A stretch of DNA of 63,783 nt, counting the filler, from Psammoneis japonica (Eukaryota): assembly GCA_008632985.1 (NCBI GenBank). It is 4 parts of 4 records of this genome, joined end to end, with 100 filler letters (N's around TTAATTAATTAA, not from the genome) between each part and the next. Parts side by side here need not be neighbours in the genome. Positions count along the whole stretch, not along the records: positions 18,084 to 36,047 come from QPGO01000475.1; 3 more parts are not named here. One strand, written 5' to 3'. A model generated the notes under the pieces. It saw nothing but the letters and a program-made list of their open reading frames with translations. It was not told the DNA's origin and made no database searches. Below are positions 8,935 to 50,309 of the stretch, piece after piece; the first letter of the stretch is position 1; each line of letters starts with the position of its first letter. The position numbers were made by a program, and so were the translations under genes.

Positions 8935-11092
8935 TCAAGTTGAAACAGAAGAAACGGCAGGTGAATTTCGGTTCAGATCCAGCAGCAAGTCTGCGTCGCT
9001 CCTCTCCGCGCGTTGCTGCTTGTCCTTCTTTCTAGACTTGTCTCCAATGGACGCGCCTCTTTTCTTGCTTGCCTCGGATATGAGCGTTCGCTCGGTATCT
9101 GGTTTCACAAGTACATAGAAAGAGTCAAAAGCAACATTGAGGTTCTGTATCATGGCGGAATGAGGCTGCCTCTCGGTGTTTCTGGAACGTACCATTACTG
9201 CCATGCAGCGGTGACACTGGCCTCTCCTCGACAGAGGTGTCAATTTCCGTCAGAGGGACTGAAGTAACTTCAGGAACGCTTTTTGTAACAGGACGCGAAG
9301 CGCTTGGGGAACTTGCCAAACCACTTAATGCTTCAGCTGCCAGCTTTGAAGCCTTGTCGCTTATGCCGCCTTCAAATTCGACTGCTAAAGCATTTGGGAT
9401 CAGCGCAACCGCTTCTTTGGTAGATAGATTTGACGGAATTCTGCTGCGGACTCTACCTTTAGCAGATTCTTGGAGATCAACCGGGGAAGTCTTGCGCGTG
9501 CGGCCCAATAGCGATGATCTGCCACCGGCGATGCTCTCACGATTCCCTTGTTTTGACGTGACTCTCTTGAGGGTGGAATTCCAACGATTCTTGATGGCAT
9601 TGTCTGTCCTACCCGGTAGTAGTTTAGCGATTTCTGCCCACTTGTTGCCCAGCCTGTTGTGGGCCTCAATGATGATTTCATCCTCTGCCTCCGTCCATTC
9701 CCCTTTATTAATGTCCGGATTAAGATGGTTGTACCAACGTTCTCGACACTGCTTGCCGAGCCGCCCTTTGAGCTGCCGAGCAATGAAGGACCACTTCTTG
9801 TTGCCATGAATTTGAACAAGCTTCATGACTGTTGCATCCTCTTCGGTTGTCCAAGGTCCTTTCACTAGGCCAGGTTTCAGCACCTTCTGCCACCTGTGCA
9901 GGCACTGAACGTCTGTGCGTCTTGGTAGACTCGCAGCAATTCTCTTCCAGTTCTTGCCTGAGTGTTTAGCAACGGCCTGTCGCAAAAGCTCATCTTCGTG
10001 CTCCGTCCACTTGCCCATGGAAGCTCGGCGTTTACCAGAAGGTAGGGTGGATGGAGTAATTTCCTTGGGTTTCTCTACCGACGCGGCAAATCGTGCGGCG
10101 CCCACCGCAACTTGGTCTTCTTTCTTTGCCGGAGAACTTGGTGTACCTCCCGTACTATGGCTATCATCGCTCACCAACCGGTACTGGACGCCATCTTTAC
10201 CCATAGGATGCTGTCTAGCAGAAAAACCTTGAGACGGGGCCATATTGATTGCTCCAGGGGATGCGTCTTGGCCTGGAGACTCATTCGGAGGTCCAGGTCT
10301 AGGGAGGAGACGATGGTCGTGATGCGGATGGTATGGATGGTACGGCGGAAGACGAGCAAAAGGTGGCGGCGGATGAGCTTGATATGGGTGCGGCGGTGGG
10401 TAGAGGTTATGCCCTGGTGGTACTGGGGGTGAAGGAGGCTTGTTTCCCATTCGTCGTGGGCCATGCTTCAGAGCGTAGTGGGGAACTGAATGCTGCTGCA
10501 CCAGTGGAGGGCGTGGATGTCCTTGATGATGAAAATGTGGTGCTTGACCTTGTCCCAAGGGGTGAGGAGGCGGCGGACCACCGTGTTTCCAGAAACCAGG
10601 ATGTGAAGGGTCACCCTGCGGCGAGTACGGTGAAGATCCGTGGGACCAATATGGGCTGCCAGCTGACTGTGGCGTGTGCGGATGATGTTCATGTGGCTCA
10701 CCGTAGTGATGATAGTTCCCACGATAAGTATGATACTGTGCATAGTGGTCTTCGCGAGAAGGGGAGCCTGGCGATTGCTCTGAACGGGTGTACTCATTTG
10801 GATGATGCCTGTGACCAGATGGAGGACCAGGCTTAGTCGGTTCTTTGTCGTAGTTTTTCTTCTTTTCGTCGGATGACGTAATGCCACCTGCATTTCTTTC
10901 TCCTCCATTTGACGGATAATCTGTGTCCTTCCTGCTCAATTCGGAAGAATTATGTTTTTCTTTGTCCTCGATAGAACGCACGGCAGAAGATGCTATTGAC
11001 GCTAGTGCCCCTAAGGCATCGACGGGGGCGACACTGCTCGGCGCTTGTCCTGTTGGTTTTGATGCTCCATTTTCTCTGACAAGGGAGGGCAT
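8935..11092 (-). CDS. R1R2R3 (3R) MYB transcription factor; probable intron 9099-9192
   Basis: Three MYB repeats: [11 protein letters not shown]...[20 protein letters not shown]...[25 protein letters not shown]...[17 protein letters not shown]. Pro/His-rich N-terminus. ATG at 11092. Intron GTACGT...CCAG joins in frame to the terminal exon ...[13 protein letters not shown]...ST-stop. Confidence 0.9.
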
Positions 11093-11683
11093 TTTGTGCA
11101 GTGTCTCCGCGATACTCGTCGTAATAACTTTGTTCCTCTTTCTTGTGATCCTGTAGTTGTCCTTCTCAAAACAAAGTTGCCACCCGTTGTGAAGAGCCGG
11201 CGGCAACCAAAAAATTAAAATGTGAATGGGGTGATGGGTCAAAAATTGCGCTCTAAATAGAAGCCAGTAGGCGTTGAATCTTCTTATATAATTTATGTGT
11301 ATATAGACTTACTTAGGAATACAATTATGATTCTAATACTCTACAGTACTTCTGATGTATATTCCAACAGATTTGTTTGTATCGGTGTAAAAGACATCTA
11401 AATTTTGATTTGAAATACGTAACGGATCGAATATTAAAAAATATATGTACGTTGCTCGTAACGTCTCAATCCATCTGTATCAAGAAGTGTACTCTACGTC
11501 AGACAATACCAGGAATGATTTGCCTTCATGGACGAATGTTCTATTCGGGCAGAGGGCATGCACCTCATTTTTTCTGTCCGTCCACCGTTGCCGCTCCCCT
11601 CCACAAATAATTTCATACAAACGAAAAAGAGAAGAAAAACGAACGACAGAACGAAAACAAACTGCTTGTGTTGTCCTTGTTCC

Positions 11684-13289
11684 ATGTTGGATCGTCACTT
11701 TGGTATTACTGCGCACCCATACGGTGTCTTGCCGAGCGGAAACGCCCTACTAGACCCCATACAAGGGTCTTTGGAAAGCGGACATGAACAGCTAAGATTG
11801 CTCCTGTCGGATGAATTGTGGCAGCAGGTTCTGGGCTTTTGTGATGGGCCGACTTTGGGTCGACTCGTTCAGACTTGTCGGATTTTTTACGTTGCAGGTC
11901 ATCAACCTGAACTATGGCGTGACTTGGTGTTGCGAGATGTCAATAATAAAGGTGGTGAGCTTTTGCGGGTCGGTAAAACATGGAAAGATACATTTGTCTT
12001 GAGATTTGTGAAACCGAACGACAAGGTCTCGCCACATGTTCCAATCGCTGTTCCAGGAATTTACTCGGATTTCTTGTTCCGTTCGCATTTGTGTCGGTCT
12101 TTTGGAATCCCCACATCTTGGATGAAACCCTCAAACGACAAAAAGAGCGACGTGCCTCGAGTCACAAATTTGTCGGTTGATGAATTCGTTTCTGAATTCG
12201 AGAAACCGAATCGACCGGTCGTTCTCGCCGGAGTAGCAAAGTCGTGGGAGGCAGTCAAGAAATGGAAAAACGTCGAATATCTATTGGAATGCACAAAAGG
12301 CAGAACCTTTCGATCAACAAGCGGTGCGGCTCCGTTCCCTGCCAATTTCTCTGTCGAATCTTACATTCAGTATTGCCGATCAACGGATCTAGAGGAAGCA
12401 CCGCTCTATTTGTTTGATCGGACCGCCCTACTAGATGGTCCTTTGCGAAAAGATTATTACCCTGATATGCAACGGACTTGTCCGTACTTTGATCCAGAGA
12501 ACTGTGCGAAGAATGGAGGACATGACTTGTTTCAGCATCTGGGCGAAGGCAAACGCCCGGACCACACTTGGCTTATTATGGGACCAAAAAGGAGCGGGTC
12601 GGCGATGCACATCGATCCTAATGCCACAAATGCGTACAATATTGCCATTGTTGGCAGGAAACGATGGCTATTTTATCCTCCCGGAGTTGTTCCGCCCGGT
12701 GTGCACCCGTCGCCTTCTGGTGATGAGGTTGCCATGCCGATATCACTTGGTGAATGGCTTGTCAATTTTTGGGATGAACACGAGAAACGACGACGCACCA
12801 GCGGGGCTCTAGAGTGTACCGTTGAACCAGGCGATGTGGTGTTTGTGCCCTGTGGATGGTGGCACATGGTGATTAATCTTGACGACATTAACATCGCGGT
12901 AACGCACAACTATGTTTCCAAAAGCAACCTGCCGACTGTGCTGCGCTTTCTTGAAAAGAAGCAAGATCAAATAAGCGGTTGTCGAGATCGGGCTGAAAGC
13001 ATCAAACCCGAGCATCTTAGATCCGCATTCACCAAGGTGCTTCGCCAGAAACATCCTGAGTGGTTTGAGGAAGCTCAAGCGCTGGCAAAGCAGGGCTGGG
13101 AAGTGAAGGCGTGGACAGATGCCACCAATGATGACGAAGAGTGCCGAGATAAAATGCTAAAGCCGAAAAGCGAAAGCGACAGGCCTTACAGAACATCGAT
13201 CCAGCGTGATTGCAAAGGCGAAGACTACTAGTGCTGCGGGAAACGACCCAGAAAGCGCTTCGACAGGCTTTAGCTTCTCTTTCTTGTAG
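11684..13289 (+). CDS. F-box + JmjC-domain 2-oxoglutarate/Fe(II) oxygenase (JMJD6/JMJ22-like); ORF stops at 13231, probable true end 13289 after a frameshift
   Basis: F-box-like LSDELWQQVLGFC...ELWRDLVL. JmjC motifs EKPNRPVVL, PLYLFD, WLIMGPKRSGSAMHIDPNATNAYN, GRKRWLFYPP, PGDVVFVPCGWWHMVINL, AVTHNYV (HxD...H triad). The alternative frame ...VIAKAK...GFSFSFL-stop ends at 13289. Confidence 0.88.
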
Positions 13290-13359
13290 CGATAATTCGG
13301 TAATATCGCCAAATATTGTTCTTGTTTTTAACCGTGTATGTTATTGTTTTGGCTAGTCC

Positions 13360-15168
13360 TCACTTTTCTTTTGTCCTGTTTGCTCGATTGTGCAATACTC
13401 GTAGTTTGTCGTTGCTCGACAACACTATCCATTCTTTGCCGGGGTGTACTGCAAATGCGTGAGGCGATCCATATTTGCGAGGGAGTTTGATGGTTCCTTT
13501 CGTTGCAGTGTTAGCGTCCATAAACAACAGACGAGAATTTTCTTGAGGGCAAACGACATCCACAGCTAAGGACGTGTCCAGCAACACCCGCTTATCATGA
13601 TGAGGAAGAATGCGGACGTTCGTCTGGACTTGTCGCCAACAGATGAAATCATCCACACAATCAACAGGAGTGATATCCACTGGCAAGCTGTAAACCGTTT
13701 CTTCAGTCTCTACGACCTCTCCGTCCGCCCTTTGAAGGCGAGATTTGGGAGACGTGTGGATAACTGAAACAGTTGGCAAAGCCGTGTCCATCTGCGGATC
13801 TGACAGCTTCATGGACAAGAGCCACCCACATGCAGTCACCCACGTGACAGTAGTCGCCCATATCGGTATCGACAATTTGTCAGTCGCTTTTGATATCTTT
13901 GACTGAGAAACCGCTTGCTCAACATTAAACTTTTCAATGCCCATCCACGATCGAGGAGGTAGAGAAGCCGTCGGAAGTTCCAAACAACTGTACGTTTCCC
14001 ATTTGCCAACAACGGTGGGCGTGACTGCCGTCGAAAATGCCTTTCGAGTACAACGTTTCCAATTTAGCAACTGAATGCTTCCGTTTGCCCCGCCCAGGAG
14101 CACAAAGTTTGAAGAGAGAGGGGCAATCGCCGTAACTTTTTCGTGCGAATTGAACACCCACCTTGGTTGAGAGGCTGCGTCGACTTTCCACAGAACCAGC
14201 GCTCCACCCGAGTGCGACACTAGGAGGTGATTGTCCCTCAAAAATAGATAGCTCGATACCCCATTCGAAGGTGAAATCGACGCTGGTGCCTTCAACCCTT
14301 GCCATACGGAATGTGTCACCACGGTCGTTCCTGCTTCCGCAATCTTTGCAATGTCGTAAATACGAACCTCGGACGTCGACCTGTTTTTGAAAAGAAGACG
14401 GATAGTGAGAAGAAATGGAGTCATGGTCGATAGTTCACATTCGTAAATCGTACCGAAATGCCACTGCTAATTGATCTGGATCATGTGGATTCCAACAGAG
14501 GCAAGTTGCGGAATAGGGAGTTGAGAAAGTCCAAGAGGGAAGGACGCGACGTTGAAGTTTTTCTCCGCTTGATCTTGACTGTATCCGGCGGCTTCTCATA
14601 TCCTGTGCGACTACCACATCCCAATCATAAATCAATATCGATTTTTTCGTTGTAGCAACCGCCAACAGTGCCCCAATAGAATCCCAGGCAAGCAGGAGAC
14701 ACCGCCTACTGTCCTGGGACCCAACGATACAGTTGTGGGAACGGCCCAATTGTCGTTTGGTGTCTTGATTCTCTTCTCATATCTAATGACTGACATTGAA
14801 CGACGCATCAACTGCAATGCAATGTTCTTGGAAGTGAGACATAATATGGAGCGTCTAGCCAGCTGATTTCTGGAGTTCACGCAAGATCCCCAACCTCTGA
14901 AGAGCCGGATGTAGGAGATGGCGAAATCGACCGTAAGTTGCTTTTGGATGGCTGTTCAGGGCACTCAGACTGTGGCGCTATTGTGATAGTCTCGTCATCT
15001 TGACTTATGGTAGAAGTCTCTCTTGAAGAATAATCCGCGTCGCTGGGTACCCTCGTTTGTGTCTGTTTTTCTGCGTCTCTGTTTCTTCTCGGTCCGTGCA
15101 AAAATGGAATATACTTTATCCGCATCGTGTGATGAAGAGTCTTGACTGTCCATATCCTTTCGAAGCAT
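13360..15168 (-). CDS. WD40/beta-propeller-like protein with intron 14381-14453 and several apparent frameshifts in the 5' part
   Basis: WD-like segments AWDSIGALLAVATTKKSILIYDW, LCWNPHDPDQLAVAFR/STSEVRIYD, GALVLWKV, GSIQLLNW, FAVHPGKEWIVL. The GT-AG intron is phase-consistent. The reading frame jumps near 14690 and further upstream, so the start is uncertain. Confidence 0.6.
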
Positions 15169-16485
15169 CAGAAGAAATCGAACAATGAGGACTCTCTTCC
15201 AGAACGTGCGTGCTGTTTTGTTTTTGTTTTCGATGTGTCTGGATTTGCATTGAAGAAAATCGGGGGGGGGGGCGGCACGCCAAAAAATGGCGCGGTCCAC
15301 GAGCTCAAAAATGAAGTAAACAGCCAACAGAGCTCGCAGCCAACACCATGGCATATTGCATAGGCAGGATGGAACTGGAACGCTGTCACGCAATGACGGT
15401 GATTCCTCGTCTTTGCATATGCCGTTGCCCAGCAAAGGCTGGCACATTATTTGGTGATTATGTGGTTGTCTATGTGGCTCGTTTTGTACGGCCGTCTAAC
15501 GTGCGGGTTAATTCTTTATTCGCCCGTGGTCTAATGAGTGTGCGACGATTGATCATCGATGGCGCAACAGCAATAACCAAACGCTACCGGTAGTAAATTT
15601 CGATGCGGCTAAAGGAGGCGTTTATTAACGGACTGTGTGGTTGTAAATGGTGATTGAGTTCTTCAGCAATGATATTGTATGAGGACGAGACGGATTTGCT
15701 TCGACAACATTAGCTTCCTTCGTGTTCATGAGAGTCTGCGTCTTGTCATTTTTCGAGTACTCGAGATCTACGTGACACTTCACTCGGTGTAAAAGGCGGC
15801 GAATGTACTTTATGCTGGTCCATCGAATTTACAAGTCACTTGAGAAACGTGTGATACTATGTGCACGAGACACGAGATCCAACCAAAACTACCCGAGACC
15901 CGAGACTGAGTCAGGCGCTGACGAAAGGTAGACAAATCCTTGTTTGTTGTGATTCAAACCACTAGTTTTATGCCCGGTCAGTGATATACTTTGTTCCATC
16001 CGAGGATCGAGACGCTATACCCTTCTTGACTGCATCAGGTGCTCAGGGAAGGTCGTATTATAATCTGCATAAGTTTTCACAGCTCCATGTCCGTGTTGGC
16101 GCAGATGGTTGATAGCCAAGAGCAAAGGACCATTCGAATGACAAGAAGAAGGCGTGATTTCGCCCTACTGTATGCCACATTCCCGCTTTTGGTGCCAACA
16201 ATGGAAGCGAAGCCTTTCGGCGCTCAGAAGATCCGTCGATTGATCTCATTTTCCGGGATTCAAACTGTCGCTACGTGACGACACGTAGAACAGTACTGCA
16301 AACCTCTTTTTGTCCCAGAAAGCGCGGGACGCAAACCTGGCGGTGACCATGATCCCACACACGACCACTTGCAAGCGAATCTCGTGTTACTGCATTTGCC
16401 ACTCTTCTCCGTTCGGCCGACACAATCACAACCAAAGCATCAAACACAAAAGAGACTACAAAAACAACACTCAGCCAAGATTATC

Positions 16486-17983
16486 ATGTCGATGCTTACC
16501 CTTTTCTCGGCCCTCAATGCCACTCAGCATGCTGGATTTTGCGGATTCCCTTTGGATTTTATCTCGAGTGGCAATCCGTTTGAAGAACCTCGCGAAATCT
16601 GCAACGCCGCTGCTCAGAGCGACTCTGCTTGTAAGACGTCGACTTTCTTTGGTGCTTACCGGTGCAGATGGGAAAACGGTAAATGCACGTCTGATGCCGA
16701 CGAGACCGGCGAGGATCCAACGTGTCCTTCTATTTTCATCGAGGAAGATTGCGAGGTGGAGACGTGGTTTGGTTCACGATCGTGCAAGTGGTACGAGCTT
16801 ACCGCTGCTCCAAGTCAAGCGCCTTCGATGGCTCCGTCGATCTCTCCCGAATTCTGCGGATATCCACTGGACTTCCTAGGAGAGGACGAGGATCCTTTCA
16901 TTGAGCCTCGTCAGTACTGCAACAGCCTTGCTGGCTCCGAGAGTGATTGTGGAGCTTCCTTATTCTTTGGTGAATATCAATGTCGCTGGGAAGACCGTCG
17001 TTGCACTTCTGACGCCGATCAAACGGGCGAGGACGAGACGTGTCCTTCCATCAGGAACCCTACGAAATGCCGTGCGGCGACATGGTCGGGAGCTCGCTCC
17101 TGTGTTTGGTACGCCCCACACCCTCACCGACTCAAGAGCCTTCGTCAGCTCCATCGGCATCTCCGGAGTTCTGTGGATTTCCACTGGATGTCCTTAATGA
17201 CGAGGATCCGTTTCTCGAGCCACGGGAGTACTGCAACGGTTTCGCCAAGTCGGAGAGTGACTGTGATGCAACCGAGTTCTTTGGTGAATATCAGTGCCGG
17301 TGGGAAGATCGCCGTTGCACGTCGGACGCGGATGAAACGGGCGAGGATGAGACTTGTCCTTCCATCAGGAACCCTACGAAGTGCCGCAATGCCACGTGGT
17401 CGGGAACTCGCTCCTGTGTTTGGTACTCGCCCACGCCGTCGCCTACTCAAGAGCCTTCGTCAGCTCCATCGGCCTCTCCGGAATTCTGTGGATTTCCTCT
17501 GGACATCCTCGAGGAAAACGAGGATCCGTTTCAAGAGCCACGGGAGTACTGCAACAGTTTCGCCAAGTCGGAGAGTGACTGTGACGCAACCGAATTCTTT
17601 GGCGAATATCAGTGCCGGTGGGAAGATCGTCGTTGCACATCCGACGCGGATGAAACGGGCGAAGATGAGACTTGTCCTTCTATTAGGAACCCTACGAAGT
17701 GCCGTAATGCTACGTGGTCGGGAACTCGCTCCTGTGTTTGGTACTCGCCCACGCGGTCACCAACTCAAGAGCCTTCGTCAGCTCCATCGGCGTCTCAAGA
17801 GTTCTGCGGATTTCCTCTGGACATCCTCGAGGAAGACGAGGATCCGTTCCTCGAGCCTCGGCGTTACTGTAACAGTCTTGCCATGTCAGAGAGTGACTGC
17901 GGTGCAACTGACTTCTTTGGTGAATATCAGTGTCGCTGGGAAGATCGTCGTTGCACGTCGACGCCGATCAAACTGGTGAGGAC
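16486..17983 (+). CDS. Probable extracellular/cell-wall protein with at least 5 tandem ~105-aa 8-Cys acidic domains joined by P/S/T linkers; truncated by gap, -1 frameshift at ~17114
   Basis: Repeat starts (FCG) at 16537, 16852, 17169, 17484 and 17802 (spacing 315, 317, 315, 318 nt). Unit FCGFPLD..EPREYCN..SESDC..FFGEYQCRWEDRRCTSDAD..ETCPSIRNPTKC..TWSG.RSCVWY plus PTPSPTQEPSSAPSASPE. The start codon is uncertain. Confidence 0.75.
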
Positions 17984-18083: not shown

Positions 18084-20269
18084 AAAGTCGTTGAGGACCA
18101 TGACTGGAAAATTGGAGAAAATCCCGAACTGGTCAAGTTCATTTGCTCCATCAACAATGACGAACACAAGGAAGTCCTGGCCTGCAACGACATCATGCAC
18201 CACATTGAGCAAGAAGACGAGGACACTGCCCTCTGGAAGTTCCAATGCATTGTGTCGCACAAAGGACCATTGCAACCCCATGATCCCTCTTGGAAAGGCT
18301 CAAGCCACAACGTCATGCTTGAATGGGAGAATGGGGAGATCACGTCTGAACCCCTTGCCATCATTGCCAAGGACAATCCTGTCACCTGCGCCATTCATGC
18401 ACGTGAGCATGGCCTCCTTGAAGCTGAAGGATGGAGGCATTTTTGCGAGACAGCCCTGCATCAGAAGAAGCCATTCCACATGGCCAACCAAGCCAAGTTG
18501 TGCTCCTTTCACACTGCGCCATGATGCAAGCACAGGCATGAAGTGCCACGGGACTGCAAGCATGCTTTGGCCCTCAATGAGCACAACGGCAACCGCAAGT
18601 GGGGAGATGCAACAGACCTTGAGATGACTCAGCTTGATGAGCACAAGGTCTTCCACGACTGCGGACATTGCAAAGATTCCAGCGCCCCGTTGGGACACAA
18701 GAAGATCTGGGTGCATCTTGTCTGCAATGTCAAACACTGCAAATGGCACAAAGCAAGGCTTGTTGCCGATTGACACCTCACAGACATGCCCATTGACAGT
18801 GTTTGTTCTGGAGTGGTGTCTCTTTGCGGCCTGCAAATGACGATCTTCCCAGCCAAACTCAATGAACTAGAGACTTGGGCCACCAACTTTGGGAACACCT
18901 GTCTCAAAGCTGCGACCAAGGAGAAACTGTGCATCACAGCAGGCCCCGAATTCGGCAAGCTAGAAGGACACATCCTTGTCATCCACAAGGCCTTGCACGG
19001 ACTCCGCAGCTCTGGCCTCAGATGGCATGAATGCTTTGCTGATTGCCTGCATGCCAAAGGCTTCTTCCCGTAAAAAGCTGAGCCCGACATCTGGCTGCGC
19101 AGGAATGGTGACCACTGCAAATGTGTGGCAGCACATGTGGACGACCCAGCCTTTGCCATGAAGGACCCCCAGGCTTTCACAGACACCCTCATGGAGAAAT
19201 GCAAGTTCAAGCTCAAAGGCACTGGACCATTGGAGCTCCATCTTGGTTGCAATTTCACCCGTGATCCAGATGGCACCCTGTGCCTTGCTCCCCGCAAGTG
19301 CATTGAGCACATGGTTGACAACTGCGTGTGCCTCCATGGGGAGAAGCCCTGCACTGATGTGCTTTCACCCCTTGACAAGGGAGACCACCCTGAGCTTGAC
19401 ACTTCCGAATTGCTCAAACCGGGTGGCATCCACCAACTTCAATCCTCAATTGGTTCCCTGCAATGGGCCGCACCCCTTGGTCACATTGACGTTGCTGCGG
19501 CTGTCATGTCTCTGTCTGGCTTCTGTGCAGTGCCCTGCCAGGGCCACCTGGACCGTGCCACACGTGTCTGCAGATTCCTCTCCAAGATGCGTCATGGTGC
19601 CCTCCAAGTGCACACTGAGAAGTCTGACTGTTCAGACCTTCCCAAGCCCATGCATGACTGGGCCCAGTCTGTGCATGGGGAGGCAGAAGAGCTGCTCCAC
19701 AAGATGCGCCTGAGCCACTTGGCAAGTTCGTCACCACAGCACACTGCATTGATGCAAACTTGTTTCATTGCATGCTTGCTGGATGCTCTGTCACCAGCAT
19801 CCTCCATTTCCTCAACAAGTTTCCGGCTGATTGGTTCTCTGAGAAACAAGCTGCAGTTGAGACTGCCACGTGTGGATCTGAGTTTGTCGCCACAAGGACG
19901 TGCGTTGAGCAGATTGTTGACCTGCGCATGACTTTGCGTTGCCTTGGCATCCCACTTGTGAAACATGTTGCATGTTTGGGGACAACAAGTCAGCTGTGGG
20001 CAGTGCCACCATCCGCCGCACTCCAAGTCACACAAGCAACACACCGCCCTCTTGTTCCATCGTGTGTGTGAGGCAATTGCCTCCGGTTTCCTTGAGTTTC
20101 ATTTCGTCAAAGGGTCTTGCAACCCAGCTGACATCCTCAGCAAGCATTGGGGTTGCTCCCAAGTCTGGAATCTCCTTTGTCCTCCAATGTTTTGGAACTT
20201 TGATCCCAAGGCTTTCAACCAATCTGACTTTGAATCCATTGCTGTTGACCCCTCAAGCAAACTGGGGAG
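18084..20269 (+). mobile_element. Decayed Ty1/copia (CoDi-like) pol: RT and RNase H
   Basis: WKFQCIVSHKGP...NVMLEWENGEITSEPL, KARLVAD, DSVCSGVVSL, AGPEFGKLEGHILVIHKALHGLRSSG, AAHVDD (=YVDD), SSIGSLQWA, WFSEKQAAVETATCGSEFVA, NPADILSKHWG. Stops and frameshifts are present. Confidence 0.92.
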
Positions 20270-20514
20270 TGACAGGATTTGAACAAGATTTTTGTTTGTC
20301 GCGCACAATTGTGTGTGCTCTTGGTTCCGCGCGTGTCACGCAATGTGGTTTGCTTTCAAGCCACATGGCTCACAAGAACAATGACAGCAGTGCCAAGATC
20401 ATGACACCAGTCTTTGAGCTCCTGCAACGGTCTCTGCATGGAGACTCATCTGCCATTTAGACAGCAGCAAGGAGTCATTGTTTTCTTCCACCCAGTCATC
20501 TTCAATTTCTGTCA
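20270..20514 (+). mobile_element. Putative 3' LTR (245 bp) of the copia element
   Basis: Follows a purine tract GGGGAG. Begins TGACAGGATTTGAA and ends TTCAATTTCTGTCA (TG...CA with a near-perfect 14-bp terminal inverted repeat). Confidence 0.65.
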
Positions 20515-21235
20515 CCAGGAAAACAGCCAGCTCTTTTAAGAAAAGCAACTTGTTTCAAGGAAAACAGCCAGTTCTTTCAAGGAAAACAACCAGTTGTCTT
20601 TGTTGATGTCAAGAAAGCCAGCCAGTTGCTTCAAGGAAAACAACCAGTTGTTTTTGTTGATGTCAAGGAAAACAGCCAGTTGCTTCAAGGAAAACAACAA
20701 GCTGCTTCAAGGAAAACAACTGGCTGTTTTTGTTGATGTCAAGAAAACTGACCAGTTGTTTCAAGGAAAATGACCTGCTGCACTTTGTTGATGTCAAGAA
20801 AAACAACTGGCTGTTTCAAGGAAAACAGCCAGTTCTTTCAAGAAAAACAACCAGCTCTTTCAAGGAAAACAACCAGCTGTTTTTGTTGATGTCAAGAAAT
20901 GCAGCCAGCTGTTTCAAGGAAAACAACCAGCTTCTTTTGTTGATGCCAAGGAAAACAACGAGTTGCCTTTGTTGATGTCAAGGAAAATGCACAGTTGTTT
21001 CATGGAAAACAGCAAGTTGCTTTTGTCAATGTCAAAAAAACCAGCCAGTTGTTTCAAGGAAAATGACCAGCTGATTTTGTTGATGCCAAAGAAAACAACA
21101 AGTTGCCTTTGTTGGTGTCAAGGAAAATGTGCAGTTGTTTCAAAAAAGAAAACAGCAAGTTGCTTTTGTCAATGTCAAGAAAACCAGCCAGTTGTTTCAA
21201 GGAAAACAACCAGCTGGTTTTGTTGCTGTCAAGGA
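20515..21235 (+). repeat. Degenerate minisatellite, 22-bp unit TTTCAAGGAAAACAACCAGTTG interspersed with a longer unit containing TTTGTTGATG
   Basis: Directly visible tandem units that share the TTTCAAGGAAAACA core with the 23-bp satellite. Confidence 0.85.
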
Positions 21236-21239
21236 CAGC

Positions 21240-21520
21240 TGTGGTTTTGACACTTGCACAGCATCCTCTCATGCTGATGCTCCAGAGGAGCAGGTGTCAG
21301 ATGCCTTTGCCTGGCGCCATCTCAAGAAGCCATCTGCATGGCCTGAATGGCACATGGGCAAGTTCAAGCAACTGGGCCAGTTCTGTGAATTGGACGTGTT
21401 TGCTGCCCCCATCAAGTTTCCCATGGGTGTCATTGTGCTTTGCCCACATTGGCAGCATGGCCTCAAGCATGATGGTGCAAGGCATTCCTGTCAATGTTTT
21501 TGTGGCTCCCTGTGCACAGT
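21240..21520 (+). mobile_element. Copia RT N-terminal fragment (second lineage)
   Basis: WRHLKKPSAWPEWHMGKFKQLGQF...VIVLCPHWQHGLKHDGARHSCQCFCGS resembles the copia RT start (W...E.KQL.QF...LRPHWQY..K.DG.RR.R.CCDGS). Confidence 0.6.
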
Positions 21521-23699
21521 GACCACACGATGTGGGCGCAAGCCCAGTGCTTGCTGACTGAGAACATGCACTCCAGAGAGGGGGCCAACGTCATTTGCCA
21601 TGAAAGTGATGTGTGGATGAAGAGAGGCACCCTCTGAGGCAGCCCCCAATGCTGGAAAGTGCCAAACAGCAAGCCACACTTCTGCTTGTGTGACAAATGC
21701 ATTCCAGAGAGGGGGCCAACATCAGTCACTGCAAAAGTGATGCAGACAATCAGAGGCAGCATTTGAGGCAGTTCAAGATGCTGGAAAGTGCAAACAGCAA
21801 GCATCACAGTGTGAACAAACCAAGCCAAGTTTGTTCCAGCGTCATTCTTGAATTGGTTGACGATGGACACAGACTCAAGAGGGACTCACTGCAGCACTGG
21901 AGCAACAACACTGGGCAACATTAACTTGAGCTTGGCATGAAAGTTCAAGAAGAGGGCATTTGTTGGGTGACAGACAACCCACCACTGGAGAATTCCTCCT
22001 GCATGGCTCTCAGCAACTCATCTGTCATGCTGATTGGGACGCCCTTGGAGCAACACAAATTCAACATGAGGACCATGGATGTTGTTTCGCTGTTGCAAAC
22101 TTTGGGAACCACAAGGTCCTTGTCTGCGGAGAGGTGTCCAACTTGATTGAGAACGGCAAAAGGGCCAGATTCAGCAACCGTGGTGGCAAAAACCTTGGTG
22201 TTGGAAACAAATTCTTTGTGGTCAGGAAACTGTCATTCTGAAACATCATTGGTGTGGGGAAGAACAGAGTTGTTGTGGGGACCACGCTGCTCTGGCACAG
22301 ATGAAAATGCACAATTGGATCGCAACGGCCGGGGATTGAGTCATGTGCAACCTTGTGGAGTTGGCCCGGCATTGGAGTCAGGCCCTGTGGCAAGAAATTC
22401 AATGGGAGGAGAGCCAAGGGCAGAAGAGGCAGCAACGTCCACATGTTCATCCGATTCTCCCAATTGGAGCTGTTTGCCATGAAGATGAGTTCTCAGGTGG
22501 TGTTGAAGAGACCAGTTGGGAGAAAACATTTGCCACACACAGGACAATCATTGCCAACAGCAAAGGGGAGCACCATTGTTCATGTTGCAATGCAAGCAGG
22601 ATGAAACTGAGTGGGACAAACCACGTGGTAAAAATGACATGTGGCGGGTGACAAGATTGTGTTGCACGGAATCAACTTGCGTGTGAGCGTGCGAGATTGT
22701 AGCTTGGTTTAATGCACAACGTGAGTTGTCTGCACACCGGCATGTGGTGCTTGCATCAAGCAGTTGACAATGCAAGACAAATCAGACTTTCCACAGTGAT
22801 GGAAATTTTGTCATGCTGGCGTGCATCTCAGATTGTTGCCCCACCAGACAATGAAGAAAGAGGACAGTGCAACACAGGGAAGATTGTCACCAGACTGATG
22901 CGCAGTGATTGTGAGAGCACAATGAGTGTCACATCCTTGCATCCACGATCAACTTGACTCAGTTTGCTTGGTGGGTCATTGTGGATGACTGATGGATGCT
23001 GTCGTCATGTCCCCCTTTCCAGAGAGTGGGCTCTCACAGCGCAAAAGTTGGAGGATGGGCACAGATTGTGTCCTCCCATGCTCTTGACAAGAAAAAATTT
23101 GAGGCTGTTCTGTTGCATGGTCTTCACCTCTGTCACAACCAGCAGAGCCACATCAGATGCCTCAGGGTTCCACAACACATGGAGCCTGAAACTTTGCATG
23201 TTTGAAGGGTGTCATGCTTGCTGCACCCCCACACCAGACACATCCACACTGCATTGCACAGAGTGCTGGATCCTTGTGATTGCACTCTTCTGGCCCTCCT
23301 GTGGTGACGGAATCAACCAGTGTGCAAGGGATCTAGAATTCTCCCAAGCTGACAACTCCTCAGTCACAGACTGGGCACAAAGCACCTGAGCTGACACTCA
23401 AAATGGAGTGCAAAACATCAGACTGAAAAGAAAATGAGTGCAATGCACCAAACATGTTTGCCAATCTGGCGACAAATCCGAAGCATGTCGAACATGCGAT
23501 GCGTCAAGAAGAAACTTTGGGCTTCTTGTTTGAGCCTCGTCCAATGAATGTCATCAATGTGACTTGACGCTTTGGGCCTTGAAGCCCCACACGCATCTGG
23601 CACAAGTCAAATGGTCCTGCCACAAAGTGCTCAGCCAAAGGGGAAGGAGCAGACCGCAGATGGCCAAACCAGGGTGTCATTCATTGCTGAAATTTCACC

Positions 23700-25060
23700 C
23701 ACCTTCTGAGGTCTAACTGGGAAAAGCCATGGGTCTCAACCATTGGCTCAAAGCTTGCAAACATCCAGCCAGAACCTGCCATTGACCAGGGATCTTGAGC
23801 TCCAATCTGAGTGCTGCTGTGCCCACCAATGCGCGTGATGCACACCTTGAGCAGTCGCATGACAATGGCTGGACTCCAGCCAATCCACTTGTGCCACAGA
23901 GAGCAGGAGTCACTTGAGCTTGAGGATGACAGGCAACAAAAACATCTTGGTGGTCAAGTTGGATGTGGGCTTGTGCAGCTTGGCTAAAAACTGCTTGGTG
24001 CTTGGATGAACTGCGCTGGGGACCAAAGTGGGGAGAGGCACTGCATTGGTTGCAGAGCCTTCCTCATCCAAGTCACCATCTGTGTCATCAACTGTTTCCA
24101 AATGTTTGATGTGACCTTGAGAGTCTGAATCCAAAGAATCTGTTTCAACTGGAGGTTCGCCGGACCACATGCTTTGCAATGGTTCAAACACAAAGTCCTC
24201 TCCTGCATCAGCCTTGGAGCAGCCACCTCATGGAACATTTCCAAGCCACTTTTCTAAAGGAGAACCAGCAATCTTAGAATGGAAATGAAAGAAACGAGTG
24301 CCAGTGCCATCAGCTGTCATGTGAAAAATCATTGCAGATGGCAACAGCATCATTTGCACAACATTCTCCTTGTGAAACCATCTGGGATGACCCAATCCTT
24401 GAACAAAAGGCAGCTTCTGAAGCTTGCAAGAAACAGGGAAGACCTTCTCAAGCACTCTGCATTGACCCTCAGGGCAAAAAAGCAGCTTGGCAGAGATGCC
24501 TTGTGACTTGTCTGACTTGACTTGCTTGCACACACATGCTGTGTCCCCTGAGTTAAACTCGCGGCATCCTCTGCCCCAATTTTTTAGCTCAACATGCCTG
24601 TGATGCCACTTGTCATTCAACACCACATTCAACAACTCATGCTGCTTGAATGGCAATGGAGCAGTCAACTCAAAATGCTCAAGAGCATGTTGTGGCACTG
24701 AGGCTGAGCCATGGATGGGCTGGGCTCGAATGTCCAATGGAAAAGGAAACTTGTGTCCAACAGCCACCAGTGACCTTGCAATGTCAGCAGCATCAACAGG
24801 CAACATGCTCCATGCATGTGCAGCAAAAAGAACACCAAGCTTCCAGAGTGTTGACGACTCTCTCTGTTTTGTTGAGAAACTGGTTGAAACTCTCGTTGCA
24901 AACAGTGCAATGATTGCACCATGTTCTGTTCCTCACTGCACTCCAATTCAAGCCAATCCTTTTTGGATCAGCGTGCCAGCACTTTTGCCACTGTTGCAGA
25001 TGCCGCCAAATCTCCAGCCGGATCTGAACCAAAAATGCTGCTGTTTCTGAGCAAAAAATT
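23700..25060 (-). mobile_element. Decayed Ty3/gypsy integrase and C-terminal region
   Basis: ESFNQFLNKTER, AAHAWSMLPVDAADIARSLVAVGHKFPFPLD, REFNSGD...KQVKSD...SAKLLF..EGQCRVLEK...SCKLQKLPF (GPY-type motif with Tyr->Cys). Confidence 0.65.
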
Positions 25061-28000
25061 TCCATCTTTCAAAATCAATCTTGTCTGGGGTGGCTGCTTG
25101 AGGAAGAGTGCCACATGGCAAACAATGTTCATCAAAGCAGCACCCAAGTGCAGATTCATCACTCACCCTTTCATTCCAGCCAATGCTGCATCTTGACTTT
25201 GCACCAAGATGGAAGATGGGAAATGGGGGGCATGGTGCCACAAATGAAATCAACCATGGAATTTTTTCATGCATGACAGGCTTGTGATCTGCATCTTCAA
25301 TGCCACAAAAATGCAACAAGACAGTGCACCTTGCACTCATTTTTGCCATTGCTGCACTCTTCTCCTCTCTTCTTTGCTTCTCTCTTGTTGTTGCAGCAGC
25401 AACGGGGTTGCTTTGCTCCCCCTCTCCCCCCCTCTTCTTCCGTCAGCACCCCCCCCTGTTTTCCCTGGTGGTTGAAGGGTTGACATCAGAGGCCCGCAGA
25501 AAAGGCCTTCAGTCACATGTCATTGAGCCCCACCATCTCATGGCATGCACGCACGCGCCTTGATTGGTGGGCTCCACTCCAGATTGAAATTGACGCTTGC
25601 TTTTGGAAAGACAACATTTTTGTTCATTCTCAATTTACAGATTAGAATGTCAGGCATTTGTTGTGCCACGACACATTTTATTTAATTGACATTTGTTGGC
25701 TTGTGTGCCAAAATGCCAAGTCACACGGCACTGTCATTCCCTCAACTGAGGACAATTGCACTTCGTTCCAGCTGAAAAATGTTCATTTTCATGTTGAACA
25801 AGGCACTTTTGCCAAAATTTCCGCATCTCCGTCTTCATGATGGATGTTGACAATTCTGCAAAATTTTCCACAATTTTCTGCTCTCCCCCAAAACCCCCTC
25901 CTCTCCGCCAAATCACAATCTTTCATTTGCACCGTTCCCTCGAGCGATCCTGTTTGGGGCATTTGTCCCTTCTGCTTGTGATCCACGGGTCCAATCCCCC
26001 ATGGTTTTGGTGAATCTGCGCAGAGCCGTGAAAGAAGCATGACAACAAGTCCGTGGTTTGTGCGTCCTCTGTTCATGCCGCGATGGCCCATGGCAGTGTT
26101 CCTCTCCTGCTGTTGCGACCATGGCCCATCGCAAAGTCACGCCCAAGCAAAAGCAATGTCTCTCTTCTGGCTCTGAATCATTCGGGGATGCCACCGAATG
26201 CACAACTTGCCCATCGCACCACTTTGTCATGTCTCCAGACCATGACGGCTCACTTGATGACATCATTCGACATCATCCAATGTGGAGGCAAACCTCTCTG
26301 ATGATGTCAATCTCAGCTCTGATGACTGCTCCAGTGGCAACAACTCATCTGCTCAAGGCAATGATCACGCCAGTGCACCGACTGCATCTGGAGACCTTGA
26401 CAGTTGTGCCAGTGATCTTTCTTTTCCAACGAAGACGATGTGGATGCCAATTCTTTAGACGGAAGCAATGTTTCTGTTCTTGACGACCATGCCAAAGTGT
26501 GCACAAATGATGTTGACGGCGCCTGCATGACAAAGCCCCAATTTAAAAAAATCATCGAGATGCAGCACCGCCGCCAGAAGTTCATCGAGACTCACAACTG
26601 GACACCCTCCGCTGATCTCATTGCCCTGCCCTTCATTTGTCACAACTGCCAGAATTGAGCCTCCCATTTCTTCATGGAAGTGTTGATGGTCAACAACATG
26701 GTTGCCCATTCTCTTGGCCACAAAGATGGCTTTCATTGTGTAAAAAGCCGTGGCTGGATTTGTTTTTGTCGCAAAGATGGGAGGCATGTTCTGGAGTGCC
26801 CCGCAAGCTGGCCGAAACCATTTCCAATCTTGCCCGATTTGGCAAACATCTCCGTGCAATCATTGACGATTTACACGAGATGACAGTGAGCGAACAAATT
26901 GGCAATGACCCATGCTTCCTTTGGCTCCACAGCTTCAGATCCGAGTTGGATTTTTTTGCGCAATGCCTGAGCATCGCTGCTGCCACAATGGACTGTTGCT
27001 TTCTCCCTCACGTCGATGAAGAGTTTGGCAATTTTCGATGCTGGTCGACCATCATTTTTTCCGGCTGCAAAAAAGAGGAAACAGTTCGTTCTGTTTTGCA
27101 ACAATGTTTTGACCCTGATGAGCACGGAACAGAAGTTGAAGGATGGGAAGGTTGCCAAGAAGATCCTCGCCGATCATCTGGAATGTGTCAAGGTTTGCGT
27201 CGACACTCGTGCCATGGCGAAAGGCATGGCACAAAAACACCAAGAGTTGGTTGAGCATGAGCTCCATTCCACCTTCAAGTGTTCCTGCAAGGACACGAAT
27301 CGTCTCAAGTTCCGCAACCTGGCAATTGTGCAATCATGTGTCCACGATCTCACGCATCCACACCTTTCCCGTGTGGCCAAGGCAAAGTTTGTTTCTTCCA
27401 CCAAGAGGAGGAAGAAGAGCAAGGATTCCTCCAGTGTGTCTGCTGGTTCTCTGGCACCTCTGCCCCCTTCATCCAAGAAAGAAACCAACCGGAATCCTGT
27501 TGCTCATCCAACCGGCACCATGGCCAATGCCCCACCGTCTGCCAAATGCCACATGAGTGCACTGGCCTCCCAGTTGCAACCTTCGGCTGACAACAAAGTC
27601 GAGGCGTTGTTGGATGGAGAGTCGTTGTTGTCGGGTGAATCATCAACTGAAGACCACCCCATCCAGAATGTTCCTGATGCAGGTGCTGTGGGTCCATCCA
27701 TGGGAGGAGTCACTTCTTTGGCATCTCCATCAAAGCCAAGCACATTGGCCAGCACCACAACTTCCTCGTCAATTGACGATCGGTTCCCCCGTGGTCATTG
27801 TTGCCGCTTTGCATCCCTTTCTGATGTCTCTGGGCATGCTCCTTGTGTTTGCATCATTTGTGATCTGGGTGATGATGATGATGACAACAAGCAATCTGCC
27901 AATTGTGAGTTAAACCTGCATCATTCTCCAGCTGACTGTCACTTGCTTGACGATCTACGACATCATCTCCACTCCTTTGTGACGACGCAACCACTTCCTT

Positions 28001-29076: not shown

Positions 29077-29460
29077 GACGCGTTCCAGCCCTAGGTGGGA
29101 CTCCGTGTGACATTGGGCCCGTAGAATTCTACGTGCGAGCTCACGAGAATTTAATCAATGGACACATTTGTCTTCAACATCAAATGAACGGCCAAGTTTG
29201 TGGCACAATTATGCTTCTTACCACTCGACGTTTTTGCAAATGCACCTGCCCTACGCGATTCTTAAGACATTGTAGAATCGCGCTGTAACAATAAATGTCA
29301 AAAGTTTTTGGACGGATCGCTCAATAAGTGTGCCGTAAAATGACACAAAATATCGAAAAAATCACGTAGAAATCTACGTGCGCGACATACGACGTGATTC
29401 AAAAAACTATCGATGTCACAGTTCAGCAGTGCGAGGTCCCACCTAGACCTGGAACACGTC
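29077..29460 (+). mobile_element. MITE / non-autonomous TIR element (384 bp), ~27-bp imperfect TIRs, 4-bp TSD ACTT
   Basis: Left end GACGCGTTCCAGCCCTAGGTGGGACTC. Right end (reverse complement) GACGTGTTCCAGGTCTAGGTGGGACCTC. ACTT at 29073-29076 and 29461-29464. Partial copies at 42560-42860, 53662-53829, 54178-54243 and 60447-60512. Confidence 0.8.
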
Positions 29461-39540: not shown

Positions 39541-39544
39541 TTCA

Positions 39545-50306: not shown

Positions 50307-50309
50307 CCA

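What the first reader, a model, noticed from the sequence alone, without database searches (positions are those of the whole stretch)
18084..20269. Conserved tyrosines of copia pol replaced by Cys or His, giving the direction of mutation
Seen: HVDD at the RT active site, KALHGL, DSVCSGVV, ETATCGSEF and GSSHNV. The second copia has HIFACLK, ALRCKLR and AACHRTRE, and the LINE has SSHHAEACG. Established: these positions are YVDD, KALYGL, SVYSGVV, TYGSEF, FAYLK, LRYKLR and AYHR in functional elements. TAY->TGY (Cys) and TAY->CAY (His) are the two outcomes of A->G on either strand of TpA. Because every Tyr codon contains TA, the process necessarily destroys the YxDD motif of any reverse transcriptase, making it an efficient inactivation route.
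Basis: partly seen in the sequence, partly recalled or inferred. Interest (0 to 1): 0.85.

Follow-up and report, generated by a model that had tools for sequence, protein, structure and literature searches.

The report
TpA-erasing hypermutation of a diatom retrotransposon
A dead copia-type retrotransposon in a diatom has lost every tyrosine codon because nearly all TA dinucleotides in the surrounding repeat DNA were turned into TG or CA, a signature so far reported only in one 2026 preprint on an unrelated alga.

Summary
Window 18084-20282 (+) is a degenerate Ty1/copia pol (RVT_2). At 19 columns where at least 90% of 84 intact relatives have Tyr, the window keeps 0: Cys 11, His 6, Leu 1, Phe 1. 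Other conserved residues are kept at 249 of 288 columns.

The cause extends far beyond this element. In 46.8 kb of repeat DNA on all four joined contigs, TpA observed/expected is 0.037 and CpG 0.48. The TpG+CpA excess roughly equals the two deficits. An adjoining 14 kb gene block is normal, and the switch at about 3827 is sharp.

The direction TA>TG/CA is shown in three independent ways: the Tyr columns, decayed telomere repeats next to an intact telomere, and graded copies of a small repeat.

Related elements in metagenome contigs show the same process at an earlier stage and without Arg/CpG loss. They indicate a T-A-Y target.

The host is a diatom. TpA-only hypermutation is in print only for Bigelowiella natans (bioRxiv 10.64898/2026.01.13.699255). 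I therefore file this as a new member of a very recently described kind. An enzymatic adenine deamination of DNA is inferred, not shown.

The parts
18084..20282 (+). Degenerate Ty1/copia pol remnant (region before RT, RT, RNase H, C-terminus), cut at its 5' side by the contig start. TA obs/exp 0.02, CG 0.37.
   Evidence: Pfam RVT_2 E 9.5e-13. 782-bit ungapped match to a profile of 84 intact relatives. Dinucleotide ratios.
18522..18524 (+). In-frame TGA. Two further in-frame stops lie at 18771-18773 (TGA) and 19071-19073 (TAA).
19689..20022 (+). Three frame changes, at about 19689-19691, 19952-19954 and 20019-20022. Positions are approximate.
   Evidence: hmmsearch of the three frames; junction codons
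19134..19145 (+). RT active-site motif reading HVDD (CAT for the Tyr codon). The column is Tyr in 83 of 84 relatives.
1..3826 (.). TpA-depleted block at the start of contig 1. It ends sharply: there is no TA between 3394 and 3826, and density is normal from 3827.
3827..17983 (.). Normal-composition gene block (TA 0.60, CG 1.03) with aminotransferase, Myb, and JmjC/F-box genes as long uninterrupted ORFs.
18084..36047 (.). Contig 2, TpA-depleted throughout apart from a 29.1-29.45 kb island.
36148..53829 (.). Contig 3, TpA-depleted. It holds two fragments of a second copia family (45899-46636 +, 36277-36774 -) that contain no Tyr, plus large internal duplications.
53930..62212 (.). Contig 4, TpA-depleted up to the subtelomere.
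62136..62212 (+). Decayed telomere-type repeats reading TTGGGG, TCAGGG and CCAGGG, with one TTAGGG left. This shows TA>TG and TA>CA in place.
62774..63783 (+). Intact (TTAGGG)n telomere tract.
29167..29461 (+). Least-mutated copy of a small repeat with about 27-bp inverted ends. Copies at 42559-42852 (-) and 53669-53829 (-) have TG or CA where this copy has TA.

Best explanation
The element is a long-dead Ty1/copia retrotransposon of a diatom. It lies in repeat-rich, partly subtelomeric DNA that has undergone a DNA-level, region- or element-limited hypermutation. That process converts TpA to TpG or CpA, which is an A:T>G:C transition at the A of either strand, until almost no TpA is left.

Every Tyr codon is T-A-Y, which is the preferred target. 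Deamination on the sense strand gives Cys (TGY). Deamination on the antisense strand gives His (CAY). A second, separable process, CpG>TpG/CpA, is most simply explained as deamination of 5-methylcytosine in methylated repeats. It changed Arg to Cys, His, Gln or Trp and continued after the TpA loss.

Shown: the direction, the TpA specificity, action on both strands, action on non-retroelement sequence, the sharp boundary, and the separability from CpG decay. Inferred: that the agent is an adenine deaminase acting on DNA at 5'-(not T)-T-A-Y-3' in silenced or foreign DNA, with inosine read as G at replication, and that it serves as a genome defence.
For: Tyr 0/19 kept, against 249/288 for other conserved residues.

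Of 71 changed residues at columns conserved at 90% or more: TA>TG 14, TA>CA 9, CG>CA 20, CG>TG 7, other transitions 4, transversions 8, multi-nucleotide 9.

Across the window, the depleted DNA (46,784 nt) has TA 116 observed against 3152 expected, CG 1295 against 2699, TG 4657 against 2754, and CA 4945 against 3089. The normal block has TA 0.596 and CG 1.03. Using the normal block as baseline, about 1760 TA and about 1490 CG are missing, and about 3100 TG+CA are gained.

Sequence that is not a retroelement is also affected. Telomere-type repeats read TTGGGG or TCAGGG beside an intact TTAGGG tract. Among copies of a small repeat, 8 of 21 and 7 of 14 differences are TA in the least-mutated copy against TG/CA in the other, with 0 in the reverse direction. 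One site reads TA, CA and TG in the three copies.

Both strands are hit: Cys 17 and His 9.

The mutated states are inherited. Duplicates at 91-97% identity differ mostly at CG<>CA/TG sites and only rarely show TG against CA (11 in 2.6 kb).

Controls: 80 related metagenome loci have a mean TA ratio of 0.67 (minimum 0.31), against 0.02 here.

Three partly mutated relatives show transitions at 27/87, 27/87 and 28/87 A/T positions within ancestral TA, against 11/341, 12/341 and 11/341 at other A/T positions. Their Arg columns are kept at 18/20, 19/24 and 16/21.

Context on the mutated strand, 3' neighbour: T 37/83, C 28/78, G 4/41, A 6/30. Base before the T: G 31/78, A 27/83, C 12/41, T 5/30.

The 91 TA that survive in the window are in exactly the disfavoured contexts: TTAA 32, TTAG/CTAA 17, GTAA/TTAC 17, CTAG 7, and ATAT, GTAC and ATAC/GTAT 0.

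The same TpA-only A>G/T>C spectrum was measured directly in mutation-accumulation lines of B. natans (bioRxiv 10.64898/2026.01.13.699255; Results and Discussion read).
Against: No enzyme, no inosine and no ongoing mutation was observed here.

A>G on one strand cannot be told from T>C on the other by sequence alone.

The copy of the small repeat at 29.1-29.45 kb keeps 18 TA although it sits inside fully depleted DNA. The process is therefore not simply acting continuously on the whole region.

The large duplications arose after the TpA loss, so much of the signal is old.

The substitution classes were assigned with priority to TA/CG explanations. Ancestral codons were inferred from relatives only 51-59% identical in protein.

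The link between Cys/His outcome and the preceding base is only suggestive. With a pyrimidine before the codon the outcome is Cys 11, His 2; with a purine it is Cys 6, His 7 (Fisher p = 0.10).

A second environmental family gives a weaker signal: best copies 10/85 and 10/56 at TA, against 23/489 and 12/294 elsewhere.

Raw reads could not be examined.
Confidence: 0.62

Rival explanations
1. A thymine-based route. The T of R-T-A is enzymatically modified (for example oxidised to 5-hydroxymethyluracil by a TET/JBP-type enzyme) and mispairs with G, giving T>C. The sequence outcome is identical to A>G on the other strand.
For: Sequence data cannot separate the two routes. The motif T-A-Y on one strand is R-T-A on the other. 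From recall: hydroxymethyluracil at TpA is known in dinoflagellates.
Against: I did not test for such a modification or enzyme in diatoms. The B. natans authors favour adenine deamination and name an ADAT2-like candidate. Modified T normally still pairs with A.
Confidence: 0.12
2. No dedicated system. A context-dependent mutational or repair bias of heterochromatin (for example poor repair of deaminated adenine) slowly erased TpA in old, unconstrained repeat DNA.
For: The affected DNA is dead repeat DNA. Much of the TpA loss predates later duplications. CpG decay in the same blocks is ordinary.
Against: About 96% loss of one dinucleotide occurs alongside only 4 'other' transitions among 62 single-nucleotide changes at conserved columns. 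There is a strict 5' T and a 3' pyrimidine preference. The boundary is sharp, within about 30-50 bp. In B. natans the rate in affected regions is about 1000-fold elevated and is switched on only in some lines.
Confidence: 0.15
3. RNA editing (ADAR- or ADAT-type A-to-I on transcripts) fixed into DNA by reverse transcription of the retrotransposon.
For: A>G preceded by U is the classical 5' preference of ADARs (passage in PMC11120146).
Against: Both strands are affected (Cys 17, His 9). Telomere-type repeats, a small inverted-repeat element and satellites are affected too. The 5' neighbour is strictly T, whereas ADARs accept A equally. A 3' G is the least favoured neighbour here (4/41) but forms the ADAR2 hot spot UAG (passages in PMC10661471 and PMC11120146).
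Confidence: 0.03
4. A sequencing or assembly artefact caused by a base modification at TpA in this DNA.
For: I could not inspect reads. The contigs are small unplaced pieces with gaps.
Against: Duplicated segments share the same TG or CA state at nearly all sites. Yet identical contexts (telomere repeats, copies of the small repeat) show both outcomes, which indicates copied DNA sequence. The element also carries stops, frameshifts and transversions. Metagenome contigs under several different record-name prefixes show the same signature.
Confidence: 0.03

Closest known systems
TpA-specific hypermutation of integrated viral DNA in Bigelowiella natans (Mettrop et al., bioRxiv 10.64898/2026.01.13.699255, 2026; abstract, Results and Discussion read)
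   Same: Changes are exclusively TpA>TpG / TpA>CpA on both strands. The effect is confined to particular regions of foreign or selfish DNA. The long-term footprint is TpA depletion with CpA+TpG enrichment. RT and DDE domains are enriched among low-TpA genes.
   Different: The host here is a diatom (Stramenopiles), not a chlorarachniophyte (Rhizaria). The targets seen are retrotransposons, a small inverted-repeat element, satellites and subtelomeric telomere-type repeats, not giant-virus or virophage inserts. Depletion is near saturation (0.037, against 0.45 for their NCLDV region). CpG decay accompanies it. The main text of the preprint does not mention CpG, tyrosine, telomeres, diatoms or flanking-base preference; its figures and supplements were not visible to me.
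Repeat-induced point mutation (RIP) of fungi
   Same: A DNA-level, both-strand, transition-only hypermutation that ruins repeated or selfish DNA and ends sharply at its edges.
   Different: RIP is C>T, mostly at CpA, and creates TpA and stop codons (abstracts of PMC2621366 and PMC3318451 in the listings, plus recall). Here TpA is destroyed, TAA and TAG disappear (3.7 against 32.7 per kb) and no stops are made. Dependence on duplication was not tested.
ADAR hypermutation; ADAT2/3 and TadA adenine deaminases
   Same: A>G with a 5' U/T.
   Different: ADARs accept a 5' A and favour a 3' G. Here the 5' base is strictly T and the 3' base is preferably a pyrimidine. From recall, this resembles the U-A-C of the TadA tRNA substrate and of TadA-derived base editors. 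The substrate here must be DNA.
CpG decay of methylated transposons (5-methylcytosine deamination)
   Same: The Arg>Cys/His/Gln/Trp changes and the CG ratio of 0.07-0.8 in the same blocks. It is still ongoing between duplicates.
   Different: It accounts for only about half of the changes and none of the Tyr loss. Partly mutated relatives lose TpA without losing Arg/CpG.
CoDi-type Ty1/copia elements of diatoms (Maumus et al. 2009, PMC2806351; searched for terms only)
   Same: RVT_2 pol with 51-59% identity to many full-length marine elements.
   Different: This copy is dead and TpA-free. That paper contains none of the terms TpA, dinucleotide, RIP, degenerate or point mutation.

Membership tests
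Ty1/copia retrotransposon pol | RVT_2 reverse transcriptase domain | tested here: met
   PF07727 E 9.5e-13, 48.7 bits against a cut-off of 31.6
Ty1/copia retrotransposon pol | Collinear RT, RNase H and C-terminal region homologous to full-length elements | tested here: met
   Ungapped alignment to profile columns 82-791 of 795 across four frame segments
Ty1/copia retrotransposon pol | Intact YxDD catalytic motif and open reading frame (a functional element) | tested here: not met
   Reads HVDD. Three in-frame stops and three frame changes. 0 Tyr in 710 codons.
Ty1/copia retrotransposon pol | Gag, protease, integrase and LTRs | not tested
   The 5' part is cut off by the contig start at 18084. 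LTRs were not searched for.
TpA-specific hypermutation (B. natans type) | Mutations fall on TpA and are A>G / T>C | tested here: met
   Tyr>Cys/His at 17 of 19 columns. TA in one copy against TG/CA in another at 8 of 21 and 7 of 14 differences, with 0 in the reverse direction. 27-28 of 87 at TA against 11-12 of 341 elsewhere in relatives.
TpA-specific hypermutation (B. natans type) | Both strands affected (TpG and CpA outcomes) | tested here: met
   Cys 17, His 9. TTGGGG and TCAGGG repeats.
TpA-specific hypermutation (B. natans type) | Confined to particular regions of foreign or selfish DNA, while neighbouring genes are normal | tested here: met
   Ratio 0.037 against 0.596, with a sharp switch at about 3827. 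Ordinary genes only in the normal block.
TpA-specific hypermutation (B. natans type) | Greatly elevated current mutation rate in the affected regions | not testable with these tools
   Needs mutation-accumulation or population data.
Fungal RIP | C>T at CpA (or TpCpG), giving TpA enrichment and new stop codons | tested here: not met
   TpA is lost, not gained. His, Gln and Trp columns are unchanged (17/17, 6/6, 13/13). TAA+TAG 3.7 per kb against 32.7.
ADAR-type editing | 5' U or A accepted, 3' G favoured, dsRNA substrate | tested here: not met
   A not preceded by T mutates at 3-4 of 196. A 3' G is least favoured, 4/41. Non-transcribed-type repeats are affected. ADAR preferences come from passages.
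APOBEC-type editing | Strand-biased C>T / G>A outside CpG | tested here: not met
   Only 2 non-CpG C>T or G>A changes among 62 single-nucleotide changes

The most novel reading that the evidence does not exclude
Diatoms, and probably a wider set of SAR protists, possess a 'reverse RIP'. In this reading, a DNA adenine deaminase of ADAT2/TadA-like specificity (target 5'-T-A-Y) is directed to silenced transposons, satellites and subtelomeres. It erases TpA until every Tyr codon and every TAA/TAG is gone. The partly mutated copia families in environmental contigs would be snapshots of it at work.
Probability: 0.4. Interest if true: 0.85.

Novelty: new member of a known kind. Interest (0 to 1): 0.7.

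Why it matters
If the process is the same as in B. natans, it is not a peculiarity of one chlorarachniophyte's viral inserts. It would be a broader protist way of disabling selfish DNA, acting on retrotransposons in diatoms, a major phytoplankton group with genetic tools.

The data here add three testable handles. The first is a flanking-base rule (T-A-Y, with T disfavoured before the T), which points away from ADAR-like enzymes. The second is the separability from CpG methylation decay. The third is natural reporters: Tyr codons, subtelomeric telomere repeats, and graded copies of a small repeat.

There is also a practical consequence. TpA-free DNA has almost no TAA or TAG, so it yields long spurious ORFs in all six frames and can mislead gene callers and homology searches.

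Tried and rejected
- No whole genome is held for this window, so I could not look for sister copies or deaminase genes.
- The search of earlier findings returned nothing by place, sequence or words.
- The protein atlas gave no useful taxon for the aminotransferase.
- I first suspected the window was B. natans itself. I rejected this because the genes in 4.4-13.2 kb are long uninterrupted ORFs, and all 10 organism-named relatives among the best 120 hits of the aminotransferase are diatoms.
- No close (over 60% protein identity) relative of the element was found in the protein collection or in metagenome contigs. Nucleotide-level polarisation was done on the small repeat in the window and on two environmental families instead.
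- Literature: searches for diatom + TpA, hypermutation + A-to-G, TpA/TpG/CpA + hypermutation, TpA-depleted phrases, diatom + hypermutation + deaminase, and diatom + mutation accumulation found only the B. natans preprint for this signature. Term searches inside PMC2806351, PMC8147415, PMC4504042 and PMC6604790 found no mention of it.
- RNA editing, RIP, APOBEC-type editing and artefact explanations were considered and rejected, as set out under rival explanations and the membership test.
Full report
WHAT IS THERE

The window is four contigs joined by 44 N + TTAATTAATTAA + 44 N linkers, at 17984-18083, 36048-36147 and 53830-53929. The finding lies at the start of contig 2.

Translation of 18084-20282 (+) gives a Ty1/copia pol. 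Pfam RVT_2 matches with E 9.5e-13. A search of longer proteins found 890 relatives among 2579 candidates, and the best 120 listed are mostly 51-59% identical full-length polyproteins of about 1900 aa.

I built a profile from 84 of those 120. These were all that are at least 1700 aa, minus P0001 and P0002, which are internally duplicated; 34 shorter ones were left out. The window copy aligns to profile columns 82-791 without gaps, but in four frame segments. It has three in-frame stops (18522, 18771, 19071) and three frame changes. It is a dead element.

| Residue | Window copy | Intact relatives (mean) |
|---|---|---|
| Tyr | 0 of 710 codons | 4.63% (minimum 2.82%) |
| Cys | 6.2% | 1.11% |
| His | 7.18% | 3.83% |
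| Arg | 3.1% | 5.87% |

At the 19 columns where at least 90% of the 84 relatives have Tyr, none is kept: Cys 11, His 6, Leu 1, Phe 1. At the 31 columns with at least 50% Tyr: Cys 17, His 9, Phe 3, Trp 1, Leu 1. Conserved residues other than Tyr and Arg are kept at 249 of 288 columns, giving Fisher p = 1e-15 for Tyr.

The relatives do not carry Cys or His there. The YVDD Tyr is Y in 83 of 84, and five other Tyr columns are Y in 84 of 84. Trp, His, Gln and Asn columns are all unchanged, so nothing flows back towards TA.

Arg is kept at only 10 of 23 conserved columns. The rest are His 4, Cys 4, Gln 3 and Trp 2, which are the products of CpG transitions (p = 6e-6).

I assigned each of the 71 changed residues at columns conserved at 90% or more to the simplest nucleotide change:

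| Class | Count |
|---|---|
| TA>TG | 14 |
| TA>CA | 9 |
| CG>CA | 20 |
| CG>TG | 7 |
| Other transitions | 4 |
| Transversions | 8 |
| Two or more nucleotides | 9 |

Caveat: the assignment gives priority to TA/CG explanations and uses present-day neighbouring bases.

IT IS NOT A PROPERTY OF THIS ELEMENT BUT OF THE DNA AROUND IT

In 46,784 nt of contig 1 (1-3800) and contigs 2-4, the counts are:

| Dinucleotide | Observed | Expected | Ratio |
|---|---|---|---|
| TA | 116 | 3152 | 0.037 |
| CG | 1295 | 2699 | 0.48 |
| TG | 4657 | 2754 | 1.69 |
| CA | 4945 | 3089 | 1.60 |

The 14,154 nt block from 3830 to 17983 is ordinary: TA 0.596, CG 1.03. Taking that block as baseline, about 1760 TA and about 1490 CG are missing, and about 3100 TG+CA are gained. 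The books therefore roughly balance.

The normal block holds ordinary genes (aminotransferase, Myb, JmjC/F-box) as long uninterrupted ORFs. The depleted DNA has no credible domain hits apart from the copia pieces and a weak transposase hit.

The switch in contig 1 is sharp. There is no TA from 3394 to 3826, and density is normal from 3827.

As a control, 80 related pol loci from metagenome contigs have a mean TA ratio of 0.67 and a minimum of 0.31, against 0.02 for this element.

DIRECTION AND DNA-LEVEL ACTION SHOWN INSIDE THE WINDOW

(i) Contig 4 ends in an intact (TTAGGG)n tract (62774-63783). Just inside it, at 62136-62212, the repeats read TTGGGG, TCAGGG and CCAGGG with one TTAGGG left. 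Both outcomes of TA therefore occur in a sequence that is not a retroelement.

(ii) A small repeat with about 27-bp inverted ends occurs at 29167-29461, 42559-42852 (-) and 53669-53829 (-), with 18, 7 and 1 TA in the stretches compared. Between the first and second copies, 8 of 21 differences are TA in the first against TG/CA in the second, with none in the reverse direction. Between the first and third copies the figure is 7 of 14, again with none in reverse. One site reads TA, CA and TG in the three copies.

(iii) Large duplicates within the window (91-97% identity) differ mostly by CG<>CA/TG and rarely show TG against CA (11 in 2.6 kb). The TG/CA states are therefore inherited DNA sequence. 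TpA loss preceded these duplications, and CpG decay continued afterwards.

These points argue against RNA editing fixed by reverse transcription and against a read-out artefact.

THE SAME PROCESS CAUGHT MIDWAY IN RELATIVES

Among the 80 metagenome loci, one family (L069, L034, L050, L060/61, L062, L039; 81-92% nucleotide identity) contains three copies that have lost most conserved Tyr but kept Arg:

| Copy | Conserved Tyr kept | Arg kept |
|---|---|---|
| L069 | 1/13 | 18/20 |
| L050 | 3/19 | 19/24 |
| L034 | 4/16 | 16/21 |

In each copy the lost Tyr are mostly Cys or His.

Ancestral states were defined where at least three of four less-mutated copies agree. On that basis, transitions hit 27/87, 27/87 and 28/87 A/T positions inside TA, against 11/341, 12/341 and 11/341 other A/T positions. 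CpG positions change at 4/60, 7/60 and 3/60, no more than in the reference copies. The TpA process is therefore separable from CpG decay.

Caveats: the search patterns were taken from the mutated peptide, which favours finding mutated copies. The reference copies define the ancestor, so their own differences are understated. A second family shows the same tendency more weakly: best copies 10/85 and 10/56 at TA, against 23/489 and 12/294 elsewhere.

FLANKING-BASE RULE

Oriented on the strand whose A changed:

| Position | T | C | G | A |
|---|---|---|---|---|
| 3' neighbour of the A | 37/83 | 28/78 | 4/41 | 6/30 |
| Base before the T | 5/30 | 12/41 | 31/78 | 27/83 |

The target is therefore about 5'-(not T)-T-A-Y.

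Independently, the 91 TA that survive in the window's depleted DNA (islands and linkers excluded) sit in exactly the poor contexts on both strands: TTAA 32, TTAG/CTAA 17, GTAA/TTAC 17, CTAG 7. ATAT, GTAC and ATAC/GTAT have no survivors, although they are the commonest contexts in the normal block (60, 52 and 59 of 539).

The rule also predicts the Cys:His split, because Tyr codons are T-A-Y on the sense strand. The antisense A is well placed only if the preceding base is a purine. Observed: after a pyrimidine, Cys 11 and His 2; after a purine, Cys 6 and His 7. This is suggestive only (Fisher p = 0.10).

ADARs accept a 5' A as well as U, and have UAG as a hot spot (passages in PMC11120146 and PMC10661471). 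That does not fit. From recall, the U-A-C of the TadA tRNA substrate and of TadA-derived base editors fits better.

HOST

The best 120 relatives of the window's aminotransferase include 10 that carry an organism name. All are diatoms, and the best identity is 63%. The telomere repeat is TTAGGG and the genes are intron-poor. The window is therefore from a diatom, not from B. natans. I did not determine the species.

WHAT IS KNOWN

A 2026 preprint (bioRxiv 10.64898/2026.01.13.699255; abstract, Results and Discussion read) reports mutation-accumulation lines of B. natans. In these, two integrated viral regions mutate about 1000 times faster than the rest of the genome, almost only A>G/T>C and only at TpA. 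It also reports 124 TpA-depleted clusters, RT and DDE domains enriched among low-TpA genes, and an ADAT2-like candidate enzyme.

Its main text does not mention diatoms, CpG, tyrosine, telomeres or flanking bases. I could not see its figures or supplements, which may hold a sequence logo.

My other literature searches and term searches in four diatom papers found no report of this signature in diatoms. The library covers only open PMC papers and bioRxiv.

MECHANISM AND VERDICT

- Shown: a DNA-level, both-strand, TpA-specific A:T>G:C process. It has a sharp boundary, acts on several kinds of repeat, runs to near saturation, and is accompanied by but separable from CpG decay.
- Inferred: enzymatic adenine deamination of DNA at T-A-Y in silenced selfish DNA, serving as a genome defence.
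- Not excluded: a thymine-modification route giving the same sequence outcome, or a heterochromatin-specific repair bias without a dedicated system.

The case is best filed as a new member, in a different eukaryotic lineage and on different targets, of a kind described once and very recently.

Noticed in passing
62136-62212 and 62774-63783: Contig 4 ends in an intact (TTAGGG)n telomere. The repeats just inside it have decayed to TTGGGG, TCAGGG and CCAGGG, so the hypermutated zone runs right up to the telomere.
   Followed up: yes
29076-29461; 42559-42852 (-); 53669-53829 (-); short matches at 54176-54243 and 60452-60512: A small repeat with about 27-bp inverted ends (MITE-like) is present in several copies with graded TpA loss (18, 7 and 1 TA). 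The 29.1-kb copy is nearly unmutated although it sits inside fully depleted DNA.
   Followed up: partly
L069, L034, L050 (family with L060, L061, L062, L039); L046, L066 (second family): Metagenome contigs carry related copia elements that are partly TpA-hypermutated (Tyr>Cys/His) with Arg/CpG intact. This suggests the process is active in other environmental protists.
   Followed up: partly
17984-18083, 36048-36147, 53830-53929: Linkers of 44 N + TTAATTAATTAA + 44 N show that the window is four separate contigs (about 18.0, 18.0, 17.7 and 9.9 kb) joined end to end. Adjacency across the linkers is not real.
   Followed up: yes
whole depleted DNA, e.g. 18084-24000: Loss of TAA and TAG (3.7 against 32.7 per kb on both strands; TGA 46 against 33) leaves long open frames in all six frames. 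This gives many spurious ORFs, for example 154 ORFs of at least 40 aa in 9 kb.
   Followed up: partly
3820-3830: The sharp edge of the depleted block in contig 1 coincides with a GGTTTAGGG telomere-like word, about 580 bp upstream of the aminotransferase ORF.
   Followed up: no
16279-17976 (+): In the normal block, a gene-like ORF of 566 aa is built of about 105-aa Cys-rich tandem modules (CRWEDRRCTSDADETGEDETCPSI...). It has no Pfam hit and is cut by the contig end.
   Followed up: no
38600-39530, 46900-48185, 49430-50310, 52780-53510, 54375-55400: Long tandem or satellite arrays are shared between places in contigs 3 and 4. Their translations give weak or borderline hits to repeat-type Pfam families (LbR_Ice_bind 33.4 bits against a cut-off of 30), which I take as composition artefacts.
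   Followed up: no
31245-32624 (-): A weak Plavaka-type transposase match (E 4.8e-4, below the cut-off) in depleted DNA, possibly a hypermutated DNA transposon.
   Followed up: no
36267-37856 vs 46406-44730 (inverted); 38685-41268 vs 49431-52026: Large duplications at 91-97% identity within contig 3. Their differences are mainly CpG transitions, which dates CpG decay as later than the TpA loss.
   Followed up: yes
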